64,000 nt of DNA from Phycisphaerales bacterium (lineage in GTDB: Bacteria; Planctomycetota; Phycisphaerae; Phycisphaerales; SM1A02), in contig JBIKZY010000001.1 in NCBI GenBank assembly GCA_044354475.1, positions 10,233 to 74,232 of the forward strand, read 5' to 3'. Position 1 is the stretch's first letter; each line of letters opens with the position of its first letter. The position numbers and the translations under genes were made by a program. The notes beneath the pieces are model-generated. The model did not search any database. It had not been told where the DNA came from and saw only the letters and a list, made by a program, of their open reading frames with translations. Shown here piece after piece: positions 19,910 through 31,604 of this stretch.

Positions 19910-19981
19910 GCGGGTGTAACTCAGTGGTAGAGTGCCACCTTGCCAAGGTGGACGTCGAGGGTTCGAGTCCCTTCACCCGCT
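19910..19981 (+). tRNA. tRNA-Gly (anticodon GCC)
   Basis: The cloverleaf was folded by hand. The acceptor stem is GCGGGTG/CACCCGC, the anticodon stem CCACC/GGTGG with loop TTGCCAA, and the T arm GAGGG-TTCGAGT-CCCTT. CCA is not encoded. Confidence 0.92.
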
Positions 19982-19990
19982 CTCAAGCTC

Positions 19991-25371: not shown

Positions 25372-28314
25372 TCAGCCCCATTTAGACAGCAGGAATGCGA
25401 GATCCGCACCGTCAACCAATCCGTTCCCGTCCAGATCGGCGGGACACGGTGACGTGCACGGTCCCCACGCCCCCAAGAGCAGGGCAAGGTCGAGCCCGTT
25501 GACGATGCAATCAGCATTCAGGTCGCCGATGCCGTCGCAGATGGCGTTCACCTGGAAGACTGACAGCGTGCCGCTAATTTCGTTTGCCACCAGCACCAGC
25601 GGATAGCCGTTCGGCGATTGCGCAGCGGGGACGAAGCACACGCCCTCGGAGCCAAGGTCACCGGCGTTGCCGCTCGATGGAAGTGCCGTGAAGATGCGAC
25701 TGTTCACGTAGCCCTCGAAGCTTGGCGATGCGGGGGTGTCTACGCAGATGGCGAACAGGCCGCCGATTCGCTCCGCGACGCCGAAGACAAACTGGCGCCC
25801 CGCAACAACGCCGACCGTCACGCCTTCGGGCTCTGGACCCTTCGATCGGCTGCGATTGTCGCGCGTGTTGTTGGTGTGGCTTGCGTTGAAGTAAAGGGGA
25901 TACAAGGATGCCGTGACCTGCTCAAGCAGATCACCGGAGTCCCACACCCGACTGCCGTCCGCGGCCCAGATGGTGACGCCACGTCCGCCGTAGGACACGA
26001 TGCGGTCGAAATCGCCGTCGCCATCAAGGTCACCCAGGTCCTTACGGATCTGCAGGCGGCCCAACCGCGCGTTGCCGCGCAGCCAACTGCGTCCGGGGAA
26101 TACGTGCTTGTCGAGCGTCACAGCGGACACCGTGGTGCCGTCTACGAAACTGCCCCACTCGCGGGCGTCGCCCTCGTTGGCGGTCACGTAGTAATCCTGT
26201 CCGCCAGACCGGAACGCGGCGATCGCGTCCGGCATGTAGGCGCCGTCAACCGGCCATCCACGAATGGCATTCGCACTGTCTTGGTCGCTGGGATCAAGCC
26301 CGTTGCCGGAGAAGGTGATCATCCCGAGCACCGTCGACGCAGGCGACGGATTTGAAGTCAAGAGGCCGGTGGTACGGTCGAACGTGCCCTGCAACTGGAA
26401 ATCGTTGTCGTTGATGACGAAGATCGTGGACGGGTCTCGCATTGCCAGACCCTCCACCTTGTCGCCGACCGCGGCGTAGCCCACGGCGGCAAGGTCAACC
26501 TTCAACGTCTTGCGGACCGGCACGATGCCAGCAGCCGCAAGCTGAGCCGGGGTCATACGTTCAAGCGTTCCGCCGGGACCAGCGATCGACGCAGAGAGCG
26601 TTGAGAGGTCGGTGGCACCGGCAAGGTCGATCTCGTAGATGCGCTTCTGGCTGGACGCACCGACGGCGCTGTCGCGCTCGACCACCAGGAAACGCCCGGG
26701 GCCGAAGGCGCAGGCGTCACCAAGCTTGTCGCTGGCGCCGCCCTCCAAGATGTACGCATACTCGGCAACGACGCTGCGGGTGACGGGATTGAACTTAGCA
26801 ATCCGCACCAGCCGCGAGGCCTTCGAGTTCGCATCGTTCGCCACGTCCGGGTTGTCGAGCGGGCTCTGCACAAAGCAGAACAGCTGGTCATCCCACACCG
26901 CAATCGCCTCAAACCCGCGGTTATCGCGGCGCTGCGCATACACCGCAGGGAACGCCTCGGTCCCCAGCGTCACGCCGTAACTGTTGGCGCCGATCGGCAC
27001 GAAACGCTCGACCATGAGACCGGTCGCATTGAACCGGTACAGCGAAGGTCGGTACTCGTCGCACATCCAGAACGAGCCGTCGGCGGTGCGCACCAAACCT
27101 TCCAGGTCGGCGCCCAGTGGATCGAGCGCGAGTGGGTTGCCAAACAGGTCGCAGGGATCCTCATCGGTGTTCGCCAACCCAGGGGACTGACCGAGCACGT
27201 TCGGAAGACCGGTGAGCGGGGAGCCGTCAGGCTTGCGGAGCAGAAGTTGCCCGGTGAGCGCGAGTGCGTTGGTCGTCGGGTTGTAGGTGAACGTGCAGAT
27301 GCGCGGCTGGTAAGCGGGCAGCACGAACGGTCGCTCGAGCGCCGCATCGCCGTCCAAATTCAGGGGCTCGCAGTTCGGGCCGCGGTCCGGGTTCGCAAGG
27401 AACGTGATCACGCCGGTGGTTGCATCAACGGAATCGATCCACAGGCCGCTGAAGCCGCCGAGCAGAATGTCCTGTCCCGCGGCGGTGGTACCGACCACGG
27501 GCGGTGCAGTGAACGTGGCGGTGGTCAAGGACGCGGTGCCGGAGCCATGGGGCTTGTAGCCAAGAGGACGCACAGCGACAATGGTGCGCGAGGCGATGTC
27601 AACAACCGCCACCGCGCTGTGTTCCTGCAGTGTGGCCCAAGCGGTGGAGGAATCGGCGGAGACAGCGATGTACTCGGGCTCAAGGTCCTGCCCGATGGTT
27701 GGCGAGTTCGGGCCGAATGCGCGGATGGCTGGGTCGATCACGCCGGCGGGCAATCCGTTGAAACCAATGGTCGTGACGCTCGCCTGTGAGATCGTGCCGG
27801 TCACGTCGATGATGCTGATCGATCCCTCTGGGTCAACAACGTAGTTGGCGTCTGGCTCGCCCTCATTGGCGGTCATGACCTTGGTTCCGTCCGGCGTGAA
27901 GCAGACCATGTCCGGACCCGCGCCGACCGTGACAACGGCTACGAAGGTACCGGTGGTGGTGTAGAAGACGATCTTGCCAGGGTCAGTATTGGTTGTGGCC
28001 GAAACGGCAGCCGCGACGAGTCCGTTACGCACGGCCAAACTTTGCAACTGCGCGCCGTACGGCATCATCGGAATGGAGCCAACGCGAATCGGCGCCGCGG
28101 GGATCGAGAGGTCCATGATCTCAACCGAGGCGGAGAGCGCGTTGACCACAAAGGCGCGGGAGGTAGCGGGGTCGTACGCGGCAATCTCCGCGGCGGAGAC
28201 GTCGTATCCACCGGAGGTTGAGCGACCGAGGAACTGCAGCGAGATGAACGGCGTACCCGCGAAGGTTGCGGCACAGAGCGAAGCGGCGAGGAGCGAGGCG
28301 TAGTGCGAGCGCAT
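25372..28314 (-). CDS. large secreted beta-propeller protein (choice-of-anchor-I-like with inserted phytase-like esterase domain) with dockerin-like anchor
   Basis: ATG at 28314 gives MRSHYASLLAASLCAATFAG. The next segment is SAAEIAAYDPATSRAFVVN..VEIMDLS. The phytase-like part is DLEGLVRTADGSFWMCDEYRPSLYRFNATG. The tail is DLNADCIVNGLDLALLLGAWGPC..DLDGNGLVDGADLAFLLSKWG. Confidence 0.8.
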   Translation of the reverse strand: MRSHYASLLAASLCAATFAGTPFISLQFLGRSTSGGYDVSAAEIAAYDPATSRAFVVNALSASVEIMDLSIPAAPIRVGSIPMMPYGAQLQSLAVRNGLVAAAVSATTNTDPGKIVFYTTTGTFVAVVTVGAGPDMVCFTPDGTKVMTANEGEPDANYVVDPEGSISIIDVTGTISQASVTTIGFNGLPAGVIDPAIRAFGPNSPTIGQDLEPEYIAVSADSSTAWATLQEHSAVAVVDIASRTIVAVRPLGYKPHGSGTASLTTATFTAPPVVGTTAAGQDILLGGFSGLWIDSVDATTGVITFLANPDRGPNCEPLNLDGDAALERPFVLPAYQPRICTFTYNPTTNALALTGQLLLRKPDGSPLTGLPNVLGQSPGLANTDEDPCDLFGNPLALDPLGADLEGLVRTADGSFWMCDEYRPSLYRFNATGLMVERFVPIGANSYGVTLGTEAFPAVYAQRRDNRGFEAIAVWDDQLFCFVQSPLDNPDVANDANSKASRLVRIAKFNPVTRSVVAEYAYILEGGASDKLGDACAFGPGRFLVVERDSAVGASSQKRIYEIDLAGATDLSTLSASIAGPGGTLERMTPAQLAAAGIVPVRKTLKVDLAAVGYAAVGDKVEGLAMRDPSTIFVINDNDFQLQGTFDRTTGLLTSNPSPASTVLGMITFSGNGLDPSDQDSANAIRGWPVDGAYMPDAIAAFRSGGQDYYVTANEGDAREWGSFVDGTTVSAVTLDKHVFPGRSWLRGNARLGRLQIRKDLGDLDGDGDFDRIVSYGGRGVTIWAADGSRVWDSGDLLEQVTASLYPLYFNASHTNNTRDNRSRSKGPEPEGVTVGVVAGRQFVFGVAERIGGLFAICVDTPASPSFEGYVNSRIFTALPSSGNAGDLGSEGVCFVPAAQSPNGYPLVLVANEISGTLSVFQVNAICDGIGDLNADCIVNGLDLALLLGAWGPCTSPCPADLDGNGLVDGADLAFLLSKWG

Positions 28315-28339
28315 AGGGTTGTCCAGTCGCAAAGAGGGC

Positions 28340-28697
28340 AGAACCGTTCCGATTGAGTTGGGGATGCTCCGCCATGATCATGTGATTCCCATTCAGGGAG
28401 GACTCACGAACGGTCAAATTGCGGTTAAGTGGCAGGTTGCGCATGACGGCTCAGGCGATGGAGCAGACCTCGCCATGATGGAAAGCCTTTGAGCGACCCT
28501 GAAGAAGGAACTCGTCCAAGATCAGCACTTCCGCACGCACAACGAGCCGCGTGCAGCAATCTTTGAATGGATAGAGGTGTGGGGCCAACAAGTCAGAATC
28601 CACGGCTCACTCGACTACGTCAGCCCCGAAGCGTTCGAGGCGACCGAGAGGGTCGGATAGGTTCGTCATGGGTATCCATGAATGGTGTGCAGGTCCA
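28340..28697 (+). mobile_element. IS3-family element, right end only: decayed orfB (DDE integrase) C-terminus plus IRR
   Basis: The frame ending at TAG 28658-28660 reads ..GSGDGADLAMMESL*ATLKKELVQDQHFRTHNEPRAAIFEWIEVWGQQVRIHGSLDYVSPEAFE. This fits the IS3 OrfB C-terminal pattern DNAxxESxxxxLKxE...EAxxAIFxYIExxYNxxRxHSxLGYxSPxxFE. It carries an in-frame TGA at 28490. The element ends ...AGGTCCA at 28697, and its reverse complement matches the IRL at 23 of 29 ungapped positions. Confidence 0.7.
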
Positions 28698-28704
28698 GCC
28701 GTGC

Positions 28705-29352
28705 TCAGCGGCTTGCTGTATCCAGCCCGATGGGAGGGACCGGAGCGCTGATCACAGAAGAGAGGGCCGCAAGCGATGACACTAGGATCAGGACATACGC
28801 GAAAAACTCGCTTATCTCCTCCCAATAAACACGGTTCACGATGGCTTCGTACTTGTCAAAGAATTCCCCGATGAAGAGGAAGACGCCGCCGGCGATCAAT
28901 AACATCCCGGGCCTTGACTTGATAAATCCTTTCGCCGCTTTCTCGTAGACGCAAAAATTTCTCAAGGCGGCACAGGCGAGTATTGCGATGAAGGCGATCG
29001 CTATCGTCACGTTTCGGCCTGCGCCGGACCCGATGAATATCAGGGGATAGGGGATGTCGAATTTTTCGACATCGAGTTCTCTGAGTACGAAGCTGTAGCA
29101 AAGAAGGGAGCAGAACAAAAAGATCAGTTTCCCTGGTTTCTCTTTGAGCGCGGCCGCCGCCAGATAGACGATGCAGGAGACGGCCAAAAGAACGGTCTGC
29201 ATGGTTTCGATCAGCCCGTTTTCGACAGACATGCGGGCTTGATCATCAAGAGAAGAGCGCAAGGACCAAAAGACGAATCCGATCCAGGCACATATTGTGG
29301 CGGCGCTTATGGCATCGACGCCGTTTTTCAATATGGTCTTCTTTTTAGGCAT
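28705..29352 (-). CDS. hypothetical polytopic membrane protein (low-GC islet)
   Basis: ATG at 29352 opens MPKKKTILKNG... About 5-6 hydrophobic helices are visible. No family is recognised. The GC content is visibly lower than the surroundings. Confidence 0.6.
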   Translation of the reverse strand: MPKKKTILKNGVDAISAATICAWIGFVFWSLRSSLDDQARMSVENGLIETMQTVLLAVSCIVYLAAAALKEKPGKLIFLFCSLLCYSFVLRELDVEKFDIPYPLIFIGSGAGRNVTIAIAFIAILACAALRNFCVYEKAAKGFIKSRPGMLLIAGGVFLFIGEFFDKYEAIVNRVYWEEISEFFAYVLILVSSLAALSSVISAPVPPIGLDTASR

Positions 29353-29636
29353 GACGATCCGATTTGGACGTGTTGCCCTTATGGCGGGTCCGGGATTCTT
29401 AACCAATCACCCATGCTACGTTAACAGTTGTTCGCGCCGGATGTCGCTCAGGTCTTCAAAGGGGACATTGCGAACAGCGAGAGCGAAAGCCGCCCAGACG
29501 CAACATGGTCGCTAAGTAGTGCATTTCAGCACCGCGGTGTTACCCTAAAAGTCTGAACCCGCCGCTTCACAGTGGACTTAGGACTTGTCGGGCGCGCGCA
29601 CCCACAACTACCCCCACAGCGCGGAGTACCCCTGCA

Positions 29637-30026
29637 ATGACATCCATCAAGTTCTACAAAGGAGCCGGCTCAAGTACGGTGCTCTTCAACAGCAACGGTC
29701 GCAACTTCTATGAGGGCGCCGGCTCAAGCAAAGTACTACTCAACGTGAGCGGCACCAAGGCCTACGAGGGCGCGGGTAGCTCCAAGGCGCTGTTCACCGT
29801 GTCCGGCACAAAGGTGTACCGCGCCGCAGGCACATCGGAGTGCTTGTGGAACATCACTGGCGGCAAGGTGTACGAAGGCGCTGGTTCCTCCAAGGCGCTG
29901 TTCAACATCTCCGGCACCAAGCTATACCGCGGCGCAGGGACATCGGAAGTGGTGTGCAACTGGTCCGGCGGCAGCCTGGAAACAAGCGAGATTGCGGCGA
30001 TGGTGTGGTTGATTGAAGCGCCGTGA
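29637..30026 (+). CDS. hypothetical protein made of six 18-aa repeats (xYxGAG[ST]Sxx[LV]xNx[ST]Gxx, repeats 1 and 4 slightly degenerate)
   Basis: The repeats are read directly. Repeat copies differ mostly at synonymous sites (for example agc versus tcc for Ser), which argues for real coding under selection. Confidence 0.65.
   Translation: MTSIKFYKGAGSSTVLFNSNGRNFYEGAGSSKVLLNVSGTKAYEGAGSSKALFTVSGTKVYRAAGTSECLWNITGGKVYEGAGSSKALFNISGTKLYRGAGTSEVVCNWSGGSLETSEIAAMVWLIEAP
29652..29975 (+). repeat. 6 x 54-bp in-frame tandem repeat (108-bp super-repeat) within the CDS
   Basis: Copies 3-4 and 5-6 pair as YEGAGSSKALFx[VI]SGTK + xYRxAGTSExxx[NW]x[TS]GG[KS], with Cys and Trp only in copies 4 and 6. Confidence 0.85.
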
Positions 30027-30076
30027 CGCACGCACAACCTCTGCCACCCGACTACCAATGGGTATAGTTATTTCTT

Positions 30077-30328
30077 ATGAGCGAGACACCTGCACCTCCG
30101 ATTCAACTCGTCCCAGGGAATTCGTTGATCACTAAGACGCCAGAGGAGGGGCGGATGCTTGCCATCAAGATGTCGAGGCTCATCATCAAGGCCACCCAGC
30201 CCGACAACGCAGTACGTGAACGGCTCCGCGGGGTCTATGCCGAAGATGCCGGCATGTTGATCGCCATCGGCCAGACAGTCGCTACTGAGTTTGCGACCAT
30301 CGCTGCTGCCAACAATTATTGGCGATAA
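30077..30328 (+). CDS. small hypothetical protein (83 aa)
   Basis: The call rests on the ORF alone. There is no recognisable motif and no obvious Shine-Dalgarno sequence. Confidence 0.35.
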   Translation: MSETPAPPIQLVPGNSLITKTPEEGRMLAIKMSRLIIKATQPDNAVRERLRGVYAEDAGMLIAIGQTVATEFATIAAANNYWR

Positions 30329-30504
30329 CGAGGCCGGAAGAGTTTGTATTCCGTAAATGCGTTGCCTTTGCTTGCCTTGCTTTCATTACGTGGCACACTT
30401 CTAACTCTTAGAGAGGCTGTGAAAAGGGGTCGTCCGCGCACATTCCCGTGTGCACGGACGGGTGTGTTGTTTGTCCCTTTCCCCTGTTAGATAAGTTTCC
30501 AGCC

Positions 30505-31065
30505 ATGATCACCAACAAGTTGTTTCTCTCCGGGTTTGCCACCGTTGCTCTCATTTCATCCGCCGCATCTGCTGACGTGACGATTTCGTTCACCGGCTTG
30601 ACGCTCGCTGGATACCAATTCGCCGAGGCCATCACGCCCGGGCAGATCGCTGGCACGCTGACTGGCGCCACCATCAATGTTGAAATGACCAATTCGTTTT
30701 GGTTCACAAAGGCCAACGATTTGACCCTGTACATGGACGTCGCTCCCCTGAGCACCGGCGGTCTGCTGCAAATCGGTGGCGCGGTGAATACCGGCGCCGC
30801 TGAGCGTCGTGCATGGCCAACCGGTGGCGGACTCTTCTCCACCACCTCCACCGGGCGCGTGGACTTGGACAACGCCATCGACCTGGCAAACCATCCAACC
30901 ATGTCATTCTGGGTTGGTAACGGTCGCGAGAGTTACATCGCGTCCGGAACATGGACCGGAAGCATCGTTCTGCATGGCGTCAGTCTGGTGGGTGTGCCCT
31001 CCCCAGGTGCCCTCGCCCTGCTGGCAGTGTCAGGCATGGTTGCCCGTCGCCGTCATCGCGCGTAA
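30505..31065 (+). CDS. PEP-CTERM sorting domain protein, family A paralog 5 (divergent)
   Basis: An internal ATG gives MITNKLFLSGFATVALISSAASAD. The core aligns with family A (DLTLYMD..GGLLQIGG..WPTGGG..SGTWTGSIVLHGV). The C-terminus is VPSPGALALLAVSGMVARRRHRA. Confidence 0.85.
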   Translation: MITNKLFLSGFATVALISSAASADVTISFTGLTLAGYQFAEAITPGQIAGTLTGATINVEMTNSFWFTKANDLTLYMDVAPLSTGGLLQIGGAVNTGAAERRAWPTGGGLFSTTSTGRVDLDNAIDLANHPTMSFWVGNGRESYIASGTWTGSIVLHGVSLVGVPSPGALALLAVSGMVARRRHRA

Positions 31066-31094
31066 GCGTGGCGGCTGCCGAGTAACCTGACCTG

Positions 31095-31604
31095 ATGACC
31101 GTCAATACCAAGACCGCCGCACGTCGTCACCTGTTCTTCAAGTGCATGGGATGTCTGCGCGGTGAATTGGATCGGATCGAGGCGGCATATCGTGCTGGAA
31201 CGCTGACCACCACCGGTAACTGGACGCCGGGTCAGAACCTTGACCACTGCGCGGTGCCTCTTGAGGAGGGCCTTGACGGCTCGACCAAGAAGGTGTCGTT
31301 CGTGGTGCGGCTCTTTGCCAAACTGATCAAGCCGGTGATCCTGAAAGCAAAGCCCGACGCAATGCGTCCGGGATTCAACGTCGGCAAGTCCAACCCGGAG
31401 CTCATGCCCAGCCCCGGCGTTACCTTTGAGCAAGGCATGGGACGAATCCGCAAGGCGCTCGCACGGATCGAAGCCGGCGAGCGCATGACCAAGCCCAGCC
31501 CGTGGCTCGGCGCCATGACGCACGAGGAATGGGTGCGGCTCAACCTGAACCACACGGCCATGCACTTTGGATTCTTGACGTACCCGGGGGCGGCACCTCT
31601 TTAG
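31095..31604 (+). CDS. DinB-superfamily / DUF1569-like protein
   Basis: The C-terminus (LGAMTHEEWVRLNLNHTAMHFGFL) resembles the DUF1569/DinB helical-bundle His motif. Confidence 0.5.
   Translation: MTVNTKTAARRHLFFKCMGCLRGELDRIEAAYRAGTLTTTGNWTPGQNLDHCAVPLEEGLDGSTKKVSFVVRLFAKLIKPVILKAKPDAMRPGFNVGKSNPELMPSPGVTFEQGMGRIRKALARIEAGERMTKPSPWLGAMTHEEWVRLNLNHTAMHFGFLTYPGAAPL

What the first reader, a model, noticed from the sequence alone, without database searches (positions are those of the whole stretch)
28705..30328. Low-GC islet with an 18-aa-repeat protein, a small partner ORF and an orphan membrane protein
This islet abuts the IS3 right end. It holds three ORFs with no family I can recognise. 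The first is a 215-aa polytopic membrane protein on the minus strand. The second is a 129-aa protein that is almost entirely six copies of xYxGAG[ST]Sxx[LV]xNx[ST]Gxx. Its copies are organised as a 36-aa super-repeat in which Cys and Trp occur only in copies 4 and 6, and it ends in a short hydrophobic tail (IAAMVWLIEAP). The third is an 83-aa ORF 50 bp downstream. Differences between repeat copies are largely synonymous, which supports a real, selected coding sequence. The regular Gly/Ser-turn plus alternating hydrophobic pattern suggests a small beta-solenoid or propeller-like fold. The compact, foreign-looking, IS-adjacent context is typical of accessory modules such as toxin-immunity, defence or phage-derived pairs. 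Any functional assignment is speculation.
Basis: partly seen in the sequence, partly recalled or inferred. Interest (0 to 1): 0.62.

Follow-up and report, generated by a model that had tools for sequence, protein, structure and literature searches.

The report
Leaderless beta-flower gene in a variable island
The three "orphan" genes are a member of the known beta-flower barrel family that has lost its export signal, a known small haem protein (HTHP) and an uncharacterised membrane protein, which sit side by side only because this spot is a patchwork hot spot in freshwater Planctomycetota, not because they work together.

Summary
All three ORFs are real, but two belong to known families. The 129-aa repeat protein is a six-fold beta-flower (Pfam PF21786). 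AlphaFold2 gives 12 strands plus a C-terminal helix at pLDDT 90. The 83-aa ORF is HTHP, the hexameric tyrosine-coordinated haem protein (PF11534; PDB 2OYY).

The membrane ORF (215 aa, six hydrophobic helices) belongs to a conserved family with no annotation.

About 20 related contigs show that this site, between a choice-of-anchor-I gene and a DinB-like gene, is hypervariable. The IS3 relic, membrane gene, an MqsRA-like cassette, the beta-flower leader, the beta-flower body, HTHP, a 689-aa ORF and a PEP-CTERM-like gene are each independently present or absent.

The membrane gene arrived as one block with an IS3 relic and a second ("type-2") beta-flower allele. That allele has its own signal peptide, still intact in one contig. 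In the window a 97-nt microhomology deletion removed its start codon and hydrophobic core, leaving a leaderless ORF that starts at the first residue of the mature domain.

Beyond this lineage, beta-flower relatives never neighbour HTHP or the membrane gene, and 77 other HTHP loci lack a beta-flower. There is no three-gene module.

Verdict: a new member of a known kind, of modest interest.

The parts
28470..28697 (+). Relic of an IS3-family transposase. It covers only about the last 63 codons of OrfB, carries an in-frame stop, and runs to the element's right end.
Evidence: PF13333 rve_2 E=2.4e-8. Frame read. L120 has a longer copy of the same relic. It is single-copy in the MAG.
28705..29352 (-). 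Gene for a 215-aa membrane protein with six hydrophobic helices, from an uncharacterised conserved family. It is 52% GC. The ORF can be extended to TTG 29406, but homologs start at MPKKK.
   Evidence: There are 26 homologs at 30-94% identity and 132-235 aa, none with Pfam. Invariant residues are E44, E49, Q52, R91, E92, G108/110/112, R113 and E178/179/182. AF2 gives pLDDT 79 and an all-helical model. Foldseek finds no PDB match.
29353..29636 (.). Divergent intergenic region between the membrane gene and the beta-flower gene, holding the remains of the 'type-2' beta-flower leader. The 97-nt deletion junction lies at 29596|29597, between CGCAC microhomologies. A 7-nt tandem duplication lies at 29574-29580. 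An in-frame linker remnant (APTTTPTARSTPA) occupies 29598-29636. A GGAG lies at 29623-29626, 10 nt before the ATG.
   Evidence: Alignment of the window with L018, L120, L121 and L118. The intact type-2 leader in L118 reads MQIPISLCLTSLFALLLAITNATAIAT....
29637..30026 (+). Six-fold beta-flower protein, 129 aa, without a leader. It has six 18-aa hairpin repeats plus a C-terminal hydrophobic helix. The ORF starts exactly at the first residue of the mature domain of its exported relatives.
   Evidence: PF21786 at 62.4 bits. AF2 gives pLDDT 89.8 and pTM 0.85, with 12 strands and helix 116-127. Relatives carry signal peptides. dN/dS is 0.04-0.14.
30027..30076 (+). Spacer containing one weak promoter-like site and one weak terminator-like site.
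   Evidence: CTGCCA-16-TATAGT at 30041-30068 and a hairpin at 30046-30063. These are consensus matches only.
30077..30328 (+). HTHP, the hexameric tyrosine-coordinated haem protein, 83 aa. It has the R51-x-x-Y54 motif and no signal peptide.
   Evidence: PF11534 at 116.9 bits. PDB 2OYY E=6e-21, with RGVY aligned to RAVY. dN/dS against L018 is 0.007.
25372..28332 (-). Left flank, conserved in all haplotypes: a 986-aa surface protein with choice-of-anchor I, phytase-like and dockerin-like domains.
   Evidence: It is syntenic in L001, L005, L016-L019 and L102-L106.
30448..31604 (+). Right flank: a 205-aa PEP-CTERM-like protein (absent in L018 and L118) and a 169-aa DinB/DUF1569 protein.

Best explanation
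The stretch is not a functional unit. It is one haplotype of a hypervariable patch in a flexible island downstream of tRNA-Gly in a freshwater Phycisphaerales (Planctomycetota) population.

1. **Repeat ORF.** It is a six-fold beta-flower protein: a small 12-stranded barrel built from six hairpins, followed by a C-terminal hydrophobic helix. In this lineage the protein is normally made with a Sec-type signal peptide and a short Thr/Pro/Ala linker, so it is an exported envelope protein.
2. **Two leader types.** Type 1 sits next to the choice-of-anchor-I gene. Type 2 is divergently paired with the membrane-protein gene.
3. **How the window's haplotype arose.** A block of [IS3 relic, membrane gene, type-2 beta-flower] landed in, and largely replaced, a type-1 beta-flower gene. 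A 97-nt deletion between CGCAC microhomologies then removed the type-2 start codon and hydrophobic core. Recombination with a type-1 allele gave the body its present 5' end, including the ATG.
4. **Result.** The outcome is a leaderless 129-aa ORF preceded by GGAG. If it is translated, the protein stays in the cytoplasm.
5. **Is it still in use?** I put about 55% on the ORF still being functional and about 45% on it being a young relic.
6. **HTHP.** It is an independent haem-binding, peroxidase-type gene that is adjacent to the beta-flower gene only in this lineage.
7. **Membrane protein.** It is a recently acquired, weakly constrained passenger from a family that elsewhere follows GT2 glycosyltransferases.

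Shown here: the family identities, the predicted fold, the haplotype structures, the deletion and the lack of linkage. Inferred: export of the intact forms, the order of events, and any biochemical role. My best guess for that role is lipid or envelope binding, as proposed for the Tubby clan.
For: **Families.** PF21786 and PF11534 and PDB 2OYY.

**Fold.** AF2 gives pLDDT 89.8, with 12 strands plus a helix. Foldseek finds no PDB match, as Durairaj et al. reported for this fold.

**Leaders.** Type 1 is seen, and type 2.

**Deletion.** The 97-nt deletion is shared by the window, L018, L120 and L121, and is absent in L118.

**Remnant of the type-1 gene.** L120 keeps the type-1 leader tail and 15 codons to the left of the IS3 relic.

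**Haplotype table.** Every element is independently present or absent.
- L019 lost the repeat body but kept the leader stub and HTHP.
- L105, L106 and L118 have the beta-flower gene without HTHP.

**No linkage elsewhere.**

**HTHP neighbours elsewhere.** These are catalase-related, SOUL haem-binding, multicopper oxidase and Crp/AraC proteins.

**Selection.**
- Beta-flower dN/dS is 0.04-0.14, including among leaderless alleles.
- The ORF is open in all leaderless haplotypes. A neutral simulation gives 0.09-0.25 for that outcome, counting substitutions only.
- Natural leaderless family members exist, for example P0034.
- The membrane gene has dS of 0.01-0.11 and dN/dS of 0.44-0.93.
- Membrane-gene homologs lie after GT2 genes or next to an unrelated IS3.
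Against:
- All comparison sequences are metagenome contigs or MAGs, so some haplotypes could be chimeric. However, the window's junctions recur in an independent MAG (L018) and in three further contigs.
- Recombination among alleles is evident: the window's body is closer to the intact allele L102 than to leaderless L018. The low dN/dS therefore cannot be assigned to the period after loss of the leader.
- The membrane gene and the type-2 beta-flower always co-occur in the five haplotypes that carry either one, so a lineage-specific functional link between those two is not excluded.
- Signal peptides were judged by eye, not with a predictor.
- The function of beta-flower proteins is unknown.
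Confidence: 0.8

Rival explanations
1. One reading: the membrane protein, repeat protein and 83-aa protein form one accessory module (toxin-immunity, defence or phage-derived) that was brought in by the IS.
For: - The three genes are compactly arranged next to an IS3 relic.
- An MqsRA-like cassette occupies the same site in other haplotypes.
- A four-fold beta-flower protein (PF21784) is part of the experimentally active Cernunnos anti-phage system.
Against: - Each gene occurs without the others.
- HTHP and the beta-flower gene are native to haplotypes that lack the IS and membrane block.
- There is no co-occurrence outside the lineage.
- No PADLOC model matches.
- HTHP is a known haem protein with redox and haem neighbours elsewhere.
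- The intact beta-flower forms are exported, whereas HTHP has no leader.
Confidence: 0.04
2. The membrane protein and the type-2 beta-flower are a genuine divergently transcribed pair, for example a membrane partner for the exported barrel, that moved together as a unit.
For: - All five haplotypes with the membrane gene carry the type-2 leader, or its deleted remnant, next to it across a shared region of about 230-330 bp.
- No type-2 leader was seen without the membrane gene.
Against: - Seven homologs of the membrane protein examined in other taxa (L096-L101, L119) have no beta-flower neighbour.
- Type-1 beta-flower haplotypes and more distant relatives lack the membrane gene.
- The membrane gene is much younger (dS 0.01-0.11 against 0.25-0.9) and only weakly constrained.
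- In four of the five haplotypes the beta-flower leader has been deleted while the membrane gene persists.
Confidence: 0.1
3. The window's beta-flower ORF is simply a dead gene. Once the signal peptide and start codon were deleted it was no longer expressed, and it looks intact only because the event is recent and gene conversion from intact alleles keeps refreshing it.
For: - The 97-nt deletion removes the start codon and hydrophobic core.
- Other haplotypes show outright loss of the body (L019), so the gene is dispensable.
- Recombination with intact alleles is evident.
- The flanking block is young.
Against: - The ORF is open in all four leaderless assemblies, despite about 3-11% divergence in the neighbouring non-coding DNA.
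- A start codon (ATG or GTG) with an upstream GGAG sits exactly at the domain boundary.
- dN/dS is 0.05-0.14 among leaderless alleles.
- Leaderless family members exist naturally.
Confidence: 0.4

Closest known systems
Six-fold beta-flower proteins, Pfam PF21786 (Bflower_3), clan CL0395; Durairaj et al., Nature 2023 (PMC10584680)
   Same: - The Pfam match is above the gathering score.
- There are six roughly 18-aa hairpin repeats, with N-x-x-G at the hairpin tips.
- The predicted fold is a 12-stranded barrel followed by a C-terminal hydrophobic helix.
- Foldseek finds no PDB match.
- Many relatives carry signal peptides.
   Different: - This copy has lost its leader through a 97-nt deletion.
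- The sequence sub-family is very small: 78 hits among 1.84 billion representatives.
- A close relative has four repeats instead of six (L117).
- The family's function remains unknown.
HTHP, hexameric tyrosine-coordinated haem protein of Ruegeria (Silicibacter) pomeroyi, PDB 2OYY, Pfam PF11534
   Same: Residues 16-83 align over the whole domain (E=6e-21). The Arg-x-x-Tyr pair is conserved; according to PMC4813847 it supplies the proximal Tyr and distal Arg of the haem site.
   Different: There is a 15-residue N-terminal extension. Haem binding and hexamer formation were not tested here. The physiological role of the family is still not established.
Cernunnos anti-phage system of the Vibrio cholerae superintegron (Darracq et al., bioRxiv 10.1101/2024.07.02.601686)
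   Same: It contains a beta-flower domain and is carried as variable cargo.
   Different: Cernunnos has the four-fold PF21784 domain. The protein here is PF21786 and is normally exported. It matches no PADLOC model, and no defence genes are consistently adjacent.
Flexible genomic islands of aquatic bacteria, tRNA-adjacent patches rich in surface-protein genes with strain-level presence/absence (established concept, stated from my own knowledge)
   Same: The site is tRNA-Gly-adjacent and flanked by surface proteins (choice-of-anchor I/dockerin and PEP-CTERM). It holds IS relics and a TA cassette. At least six haplotypes occur among closely related strains.
   Different: Here the variation is at the scale of single genes and gene parts within about 2 kb. 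No phenotype is known.
IS3-family insertion sequences
   Same: The C-terminal integrase-core motif (rve_2) and the right end are present.
   Different: Only about 230 nt remain, with an in-frame stop. It is not a mobile element.

Membership tests
Beta-flower, six-fold (PF21786) | Match to the Pfam HMM above the gathering score | tested here: met
   62.4 bits against a cut-off of 34, E=5e-17.
Beta-flower, six-fold (PF21786) | Six beta-hairpin 'petals' forming 12 short antiparallel strands | tested here: met
   The AF2 model has 12 strands, at pLDDT 89.8 and pTM 0.85. Six 18-aa repeats are visible in the sequence.
Beta-flower, six-fold (PF21786) | C-terminal hydrophobic alpha-helix enclosed by the barrel (true of 'many' members) | tested here: inconclusive
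   Helix 116-127 is predicted.
Beta-flower, six-fold (PF21786) | Semi-conserved [DNEQ]xxG motif at the hairpin tip | tested here: met
   The tips read NSNG, NVSG, (T)VSG, NITG, NISG and NWSG, so five of six repeats have N-x-x-G.
Tubby C-terminal domain (same Pfam clan CL0395) | Detectable structural similarity to solved Tubby or scramblase structures | tested here: not met
   The best Foldseek PDB hit has E=0.36, and no Tubby entry appears among the top 50. Clan membership rests on the Pfam curators' judgement.
HTHP (PF11534) | HMM match and homology to PDB 2OYY | tested here: met
   116.9 bits against a cut-off of 25. 2OYY E=6.3e-21 over residues 16-83.
HTHP (PF11534) | Haem-ligand Tyr with a nearby Arg | tested here: met
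   R51-G-V-Y54 aligns with R-A-V-Y of 2OYY. The roles of Tyr and Arg come from PMC4813847.
HTHP (PF11534) | Hexameric ring that binds six haems | not testable with these tools
   This needs biochemistry or multimer modelling.
Two- or three-gene defence or toxin-immunity module | Conserved co-occurrence of the components across genomes | tested here: not met
Two- or three-gene defence or toxin-immunity module | Similarity to known defence proteins | tested here: not met
   No PADLOC hits for any of the three proteins. No PHROG hits.
IS3-family insertion sequence (functional element) | Complete orfA/orfB and both inverted repeats | tested here: not met
   Only the OrfB C-terminus is present, with a stop. 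No other copy exists in the MAG.

The most novel reading that the evidence does not exclude
The leaderless allele is not a relic. On this reading a population of uncultured Planctomycetota maintains both exported and cytoplasmic versions of the same beta-flower barrel, and also four- and six-petal versions. These are switched by short microhomology or repeat-mediated deletions in a flexible island, because the protein is a target of, or a shield against, phages or other envelope-directed attack. That would give the functionally dark beta-flower family its first natural 'allelic series' and point to an envelope or defence role.
Probability: 0.12. Interest if true: 0.55.

Novelty: new member of a known kind. 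Interest (0 to 1): 0.27.

Why it matters
The beta-flower fold was named in 2023 and still has no solved structure and, for the six-fold family, no known function. This locus adds three things:
- a clear natural series of variants of one beta-flower gene: two different signal peptides, a leaderless form, a four-petal form and complete loss;
- evidence that the gene is dispensable, strain-variable cargo in an island rich in surface-protein genes;
- a negative result, namely that its adjacency to the hexameric haem protein HTHP is coincidental.

It also flags a conserved membrane-protein family of about 210 aa, with no Pfam entry and invariant Glu/Arg residues. That family often follows GT2 glycosyltransferases and would merit a DUF entry. 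None of this changes current understanding, so the value is in annotation and as a lead.

Tried and rejected
1. **A 6:6 complex or operon of the six-fold beta-flower with hexameric HTHP.** Rejected. The adjacency is confined to alleles at least 88% identical. Each gene occurs without the other (L019; L105, L106, L118). The intact beta-flower is exported while HTHP has no leader.
2. **My first model: a simple 1.2-kb insertion at 28407-29618 that truncated a type-1 gene, with 29500-29636 as a decayed type-1 signal peptide.** Rejected. The local alignment scores no better than shuffles. L118 shows that the region is a different, type-2 leader carrying a 97-nt deletion.
3. **The membrane gene as an IS3 passenger.** A homolog in L098 also abuts an IS3, but that IS is unrelated to the relic here. 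I treat this as coincidence.
4. **Function of the membrane protein.**
   - Pfam gives nothing.
   - NCBIfam gives only an 18-bit PgaD hit against a cut-off of 180.
   - PHROGs and PADLOC give nothing.
   - AF2 plus Foldseek give nothing below E=0.1.
5. **Phage origin of the 39-40% relatives (L112-L116).** No match in the phage collection and no structural PHROGs; only a DNA methylase was found.
8. **Exact-sequence cluster look-ups of the leaderless and type-2 proteins.** Nothing found.
Full report
**1. What is in the sequence**

- 28705-29406 on the minus strand. This is 233 aa from TTG. Homologs start at the ATG at 29352, which gives 215 aa.
- 29637-30026 on the plus strand (129 aa).
- 30077-30328 on the plus strand (83 aa).

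The 129-aa protein reads MTSIK, then six 18-aa copies, then LETSEIAAMVWLIEAP. Cys and Trp occur only in copies 4 and 6. Tandem Repeats Finder reports period 108 nt (2.0 copies, 79% match) and period 54 nt.

GC content is 52% for the membrane gene, 59% for the repeat gene and 57% for the 83-aa gene. The whole window is 61%. "Low-GC islet" therefore describes only the membrane gene.

Just upstream of the membrane gene's stop codon lies the C-terminal end of an IS3-type transposase. It carries an in-frame stop (...NAMMESL*ATLKKELV...LDYVSPEAFE). It matches PF13333 rve_2 at E=2.4e-8.

**2. Two of the three proteins belong to described families**

The repeat protein matches PF21786, "6-fold beta flower protein". 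The score is 62.4 bits against a gathering score of 34. The 83-aa protein matches PF11534, HTHP, at 116.9 bits against a cut-off of 25.

HTHP also aligns over residues 16-83 with PDB 2OYY (E=6e-21). Its R51-G-V-Y54 lies on R-A-V-Y of the solved protein. According to PMC4813847, the haem iron of HTHP is bound by a Tyr with an Arg on the distal side.

The beta-flower fold was defined by Durairaj et al. (Nature 2023, PMC10584680). They describe it as follows:
- a shallow barrel of 8, 10 or 12 strands built from hairpin "petals";
- many members enclose a C-terminal hydrophobic helix;
- some members carry signal or lipoprotein leaders;
- a semi-conserved [DNEQ]xxG motif sits at the hairpin tip;
- no match to the PDB, and a loose resemblance to Tubby C-terminal domains.

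AlphaFold2 on the window protein, with eight close sequences, gives mean pLDDT 89.8 and pTM 0.85. The model has 12 strands and a helix at residues 116-127. Foldseek against the PDB finds nothing better than E=0.36. Five of the six repeats have N-x-x-G at the tip. Membership in PF21786 is therefore well supported.

The sequence sub-family is small. An exhaustive HMMER scan of 1.84 billion representatives gives only 78 hits. These include forms with leaders (P0040, P0043, P0041, P0042) and without (P0033, P0034, P0057, P0066, P0087).

**3. The membrane protein**

It has 26 homologs of 132-235 aa at 30-94% identity. They come from diverse bacteria, and source names include Desulfobacterales and Burkholderiaceae. 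None carries a Pfam domain.

The alignment shows six hydrophobic segments. The invariant polar residues are E44, E49, Q52, R91, E92, G108, G110, G112, R113, E178, E179 and E182. The AF2 model is all-helical (pLDDT 79) and has no significant PDB neighbour.

Homologs lie in three kinds of context:
- directly after GT2 glycosyltransferases in polysaccharide clusters (L096, L097, L100, L101);
- after an acetyltransferase (L099);
- next to an unrelated IS3 (L098).

I can say only that this is a real, uncharacterised inner-membrane protein family, possibly connected to glycan biosynthesis.

**4. Comparative anatomy of the site**

The genome is a 75%-complete freshwater Phycisphaerales MAG. I collected about 20 related contigs by four routes:
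- exact-protein look-ups;
- an HTHP scan of GTDB genomes;
- a beta-flower scan of JGI metagenomes;
- feature-by-feature BLAST.

The flanking genes are constant. They are the choice-of-anchor-I gene on the left and the DinB/DUF1569 gene on the right. Everything between them varies:

| Haplotype | Content between the flanks |
|---|---|
| L001-L005 | type-1 beta-flower + HTHP |
| L016, L102-L104 | the same, plus a 689-aa ORF after HTHP |
| L017 | MqsR/MqsA-like cassette + type-1 beta-flower + HTHP |
| L105, L106 | MqsRA-like cassette + type-1 beta-flower + 689-aa ORF, no HTHP |
| L019 | leader stub + HTHP; the repeat body was deleted between AAGCGC microhomologies |
| L117 | a four-repeat beta-flower (one 36-aa super-repeat missing) + HTHP |
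| window, L018 | IS3 relic + membrane gene + leaderless beta-flower + HTHP |
| L120, L121 | MqsRA-like cassette (L120 only; L121 is too short to show it) + fragment of a type-1 beta-flower + IS3 relic + membrane gene + leaderless beta-flower (+ HTHP in L120) |
| L118 | MqsRA-like cassette + IS3 relic + membrane gene + type-2 beta-flower with an intact leader; no HTHP and no PEP-CTERM-like gene |

The same-genus genome G382 has no PF21786 gene at all, and only 2 of 401 genomes sampled from the phylum score above the cut-off.

The site lies in the region downstream of tRNA-Gly(GCC) at 19910-19982. Two earlier notes (e1-4006742, e1-4006743) had already described that region as a mosaic containing IS3 relics.

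**5. History of the window's allele**

In relatives the beta-flower protein starts with a signal peptide. There are two kinds:
- Type 1: MKHISKRSGLRALGLCFAALLPLTIASATSTALGAWTTAA, followed by MTSIKFYKG.
- Type 2, seen intact only in L118: MQIPISLCLTSLFALLLAITNATAIATAPTTTPTARSTPA, followed by VTSTKFFKG.

Type 2 lies next to the membrane gene and is transcribed divergently from it.

Aligning the window, L018, L120 and L121 with L118 shows a 97-nt deletion in the first four. It is bounded by the pentamer CGCAC on both sides, and the window junction is 29596|29597. The deletion removes the type-2 ATG and the hydrophobic core. It leaves the linker codons (APTTTPTARSTPA) in frame but without a start.

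The first codon of the mature domain is GTG in L118, L120 and L121. It is ATG in the window and L018. The first roughly 40 nt of the body in the window and L018 carry type-1 states (ATG, ATC, TAC, AAA...). They are therefore recombinants, with a type-2 upstream region and a type-1-like body.

To the left of the IS3 relic, L120 still holds the tail of a type-1 leader and 15 codons of a type-1 body. The block [IS3, membrane gene, type-2 beta-flower] therefore entered, or replaced, a type-1 gene. In the window that left remnant has been deleted, along with most of the IS (left junction about 28469|28470).

**6. Is the leaderless gene alive?**

For:
- The ORF is open in all four leaderless assemblies.
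- A start codon with GGAG 10 nt upstream sits at the domain boundary.
- dN/dS among leaderless alleles is 0.05-0.14, similar to the range of intact alleles (0.05-0.07).
- Family members without leaders exist naturally.
- A substitution-only neutral simulation gives 0.09-0.25 for three lineages all staying open at 3-5.5% divergence per lineage.

Against:
- The window's body is closer to the intact allele L102 (15 differences) than to leaderless L018 (25 differences). Gene conversion could therefore explain both the low dN/dS and the intact state.
- The gene is clearly dispensable, since L019 and G382 lack it.
- No expression data could be obtained.

I put 55% on "still used, now cytoplasmic" and 45% on "young relic".

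**7. No module**

From the HTHP side, among 80 GTDB loci only the three with at least 99% identical HTHP carry a beta-flower. This holds with phmmer and with a 12-sequence family profile. Other HTHP genes sit beside different partners:
- a Crp-family regulator;
- a catalase-related protein;
- an isochorismatase;
- an AraC regulator plus an FAD monooxygenase;
- a SOUL haem-binding protein;
- a multicopper oxidase.

That fits a haem or peroxide role that does not depend on the beta-flower.

From the beta-flower side, relatives at 63-67% identity (L107-L110) and at 39-40% identity (L112-L116) have no HTHP and no membrane-family gene within up to 4 kb of flank, or to the contig end where that is nearer. 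No PADLOC or PHROG model matches any of the three proteins.

The membrane gene is much younger in this population (dS 0.01-0.11) than the beta-flower gene (dS 0.15-0.9) or HTHP (dS 0.8). It is also weakly constrained, with dN/dS of 0.44-0.93.

The only residual linkage is that the membrane gene and the type-2 leader always occur together in five haplotypes. I give that a 10% chance of being functional.

**8. Function**

The following are inference, not demonstration:
- The intact beta-flower proteins of this lineage are exported small barrels.
- They sit among genes for surface proteins (choice-of-anchor I/dockerin, PEP-CTERM-like).
- They vary at strain level, as expected for envelope components under frequency-dependent selection.

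The Tubby-clan analogy suggests lipid or membrane binding. The one experimentally linked role for any beta-flower domain is the four-fold PF21784 protein of the Cernunnos anti-phage system, which belongs to a different Pfam family.

**9. Verdict**

The stretch holds a new member of the beta-flower family with an instructive history of leader loss, an ordinary HTHP gene and an orphan membrane-protein gene. They were juxtaposed by recombination in a hypervariable island. Interest is modest.

Noticed in passing
L117:790-1191 (protein P0005): A 94%-identical relative has only four of the six repeats. Exactly one 36-aa super-repeat is missing, with the breakpoint inside the shared YEGAGSSKALF of copies 3 and 5. 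This would be a natural six-petal to four-petal conversion. Assembly collapse is not excluded.
   Followed up: partly
L019:3700-3870: The beta-flower repeat body is cleanly deleted between two AAGCGC microhomologies. That leaves the type-1 signal-peptide stub directly upstream of HTHP.
   Followed up: yes
L017:400-1600; also L105, L106, L111, L118, L120: A 1.2-1.4 kb MqsR/MqsA-like toxin-antitoxin cassette occupies the same intergenic site in several haplotypes. Its Pfam scores are below cut-off for MqsR (19.8 bits) and MqsA (27.7 bits), but HTH_3 is clear.
   Followed up: partly
L016:4215-6284; L102-L106: A 689-aa ORF with no Pfam, PHROG or PADLOC match is 100% identical across four contigs whose flanks are only 91-96% identical. 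It either follows HTHP or replaces it. It looks like a recently spread cassette.
   Followed up: no
L112-L116 (e.g. L114:3956-4387): Leaderless 143-aa beta-flower relatives (39-40% identity) lie in lower-GC-looking contigs full of orphan ORFs, with an N6/N4 DNA methylase nearby. This may be a virus or mobile element, but the INPHARED phage collection gave no match and no structural PHROGs were found.
   Followed up: partly
L120 (reverse strand) about 1876-1960: About 66 nt of the beta-flower 5' end (leader tail plus 15 codons) is present on both sides of the [IS3 relic, membrane gene] block. Such a duplication is far longer than an IS3 target-site duplication, and the mechanism is unexplained. 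Single-crossover integration of a circle, or two gene copies, are possibilities.
   Followed up: partly
window 30077-30328 vs L018:2594-2845: HTHP shows 30 synonymous against 1 non-synonymous difference (dS 0.80, dN/dS 0.007). That is extreme conservation of a protein whose physiological role is still unclear.
   Followed up: partly
L029, L030, L045 (SOUL); L034, L037, L059 (catalase-related): HTHP is next to a SOUL haem-binding protein in L029 and to a 329-aa catalase-related protein in L034. Same-sized ORFs sit at the same position in L030 and L045 and in L037 and L059, but those were not scanned. This could be informative about HTHP's real function.
   Followed up: partly
window 28705-29352 and alignment A4: The membrane-protein family has no Pfam entry but has strikingly invariant Glu/Arg/Gly positions (E44, E49, R91-E92, GSGxGR 108-113, EExxE 178-182). 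It often lies directly after GT2 glycosyltransferases.
   Followed up: partly
window 29574-29580: A 7-nt tandem duplication (GGACTTA GGACTT) is unique to the window and absent from L018, L118, L120 and L121.
   Followed up: yes
L018:2846-3439: This otherwise collinear MAG lacks the 205-aa PEP-CTERM-like gene, so the DinB-like gene follows HTHP directly. This is another presence/absence polymorphism.
   Followed up: partly
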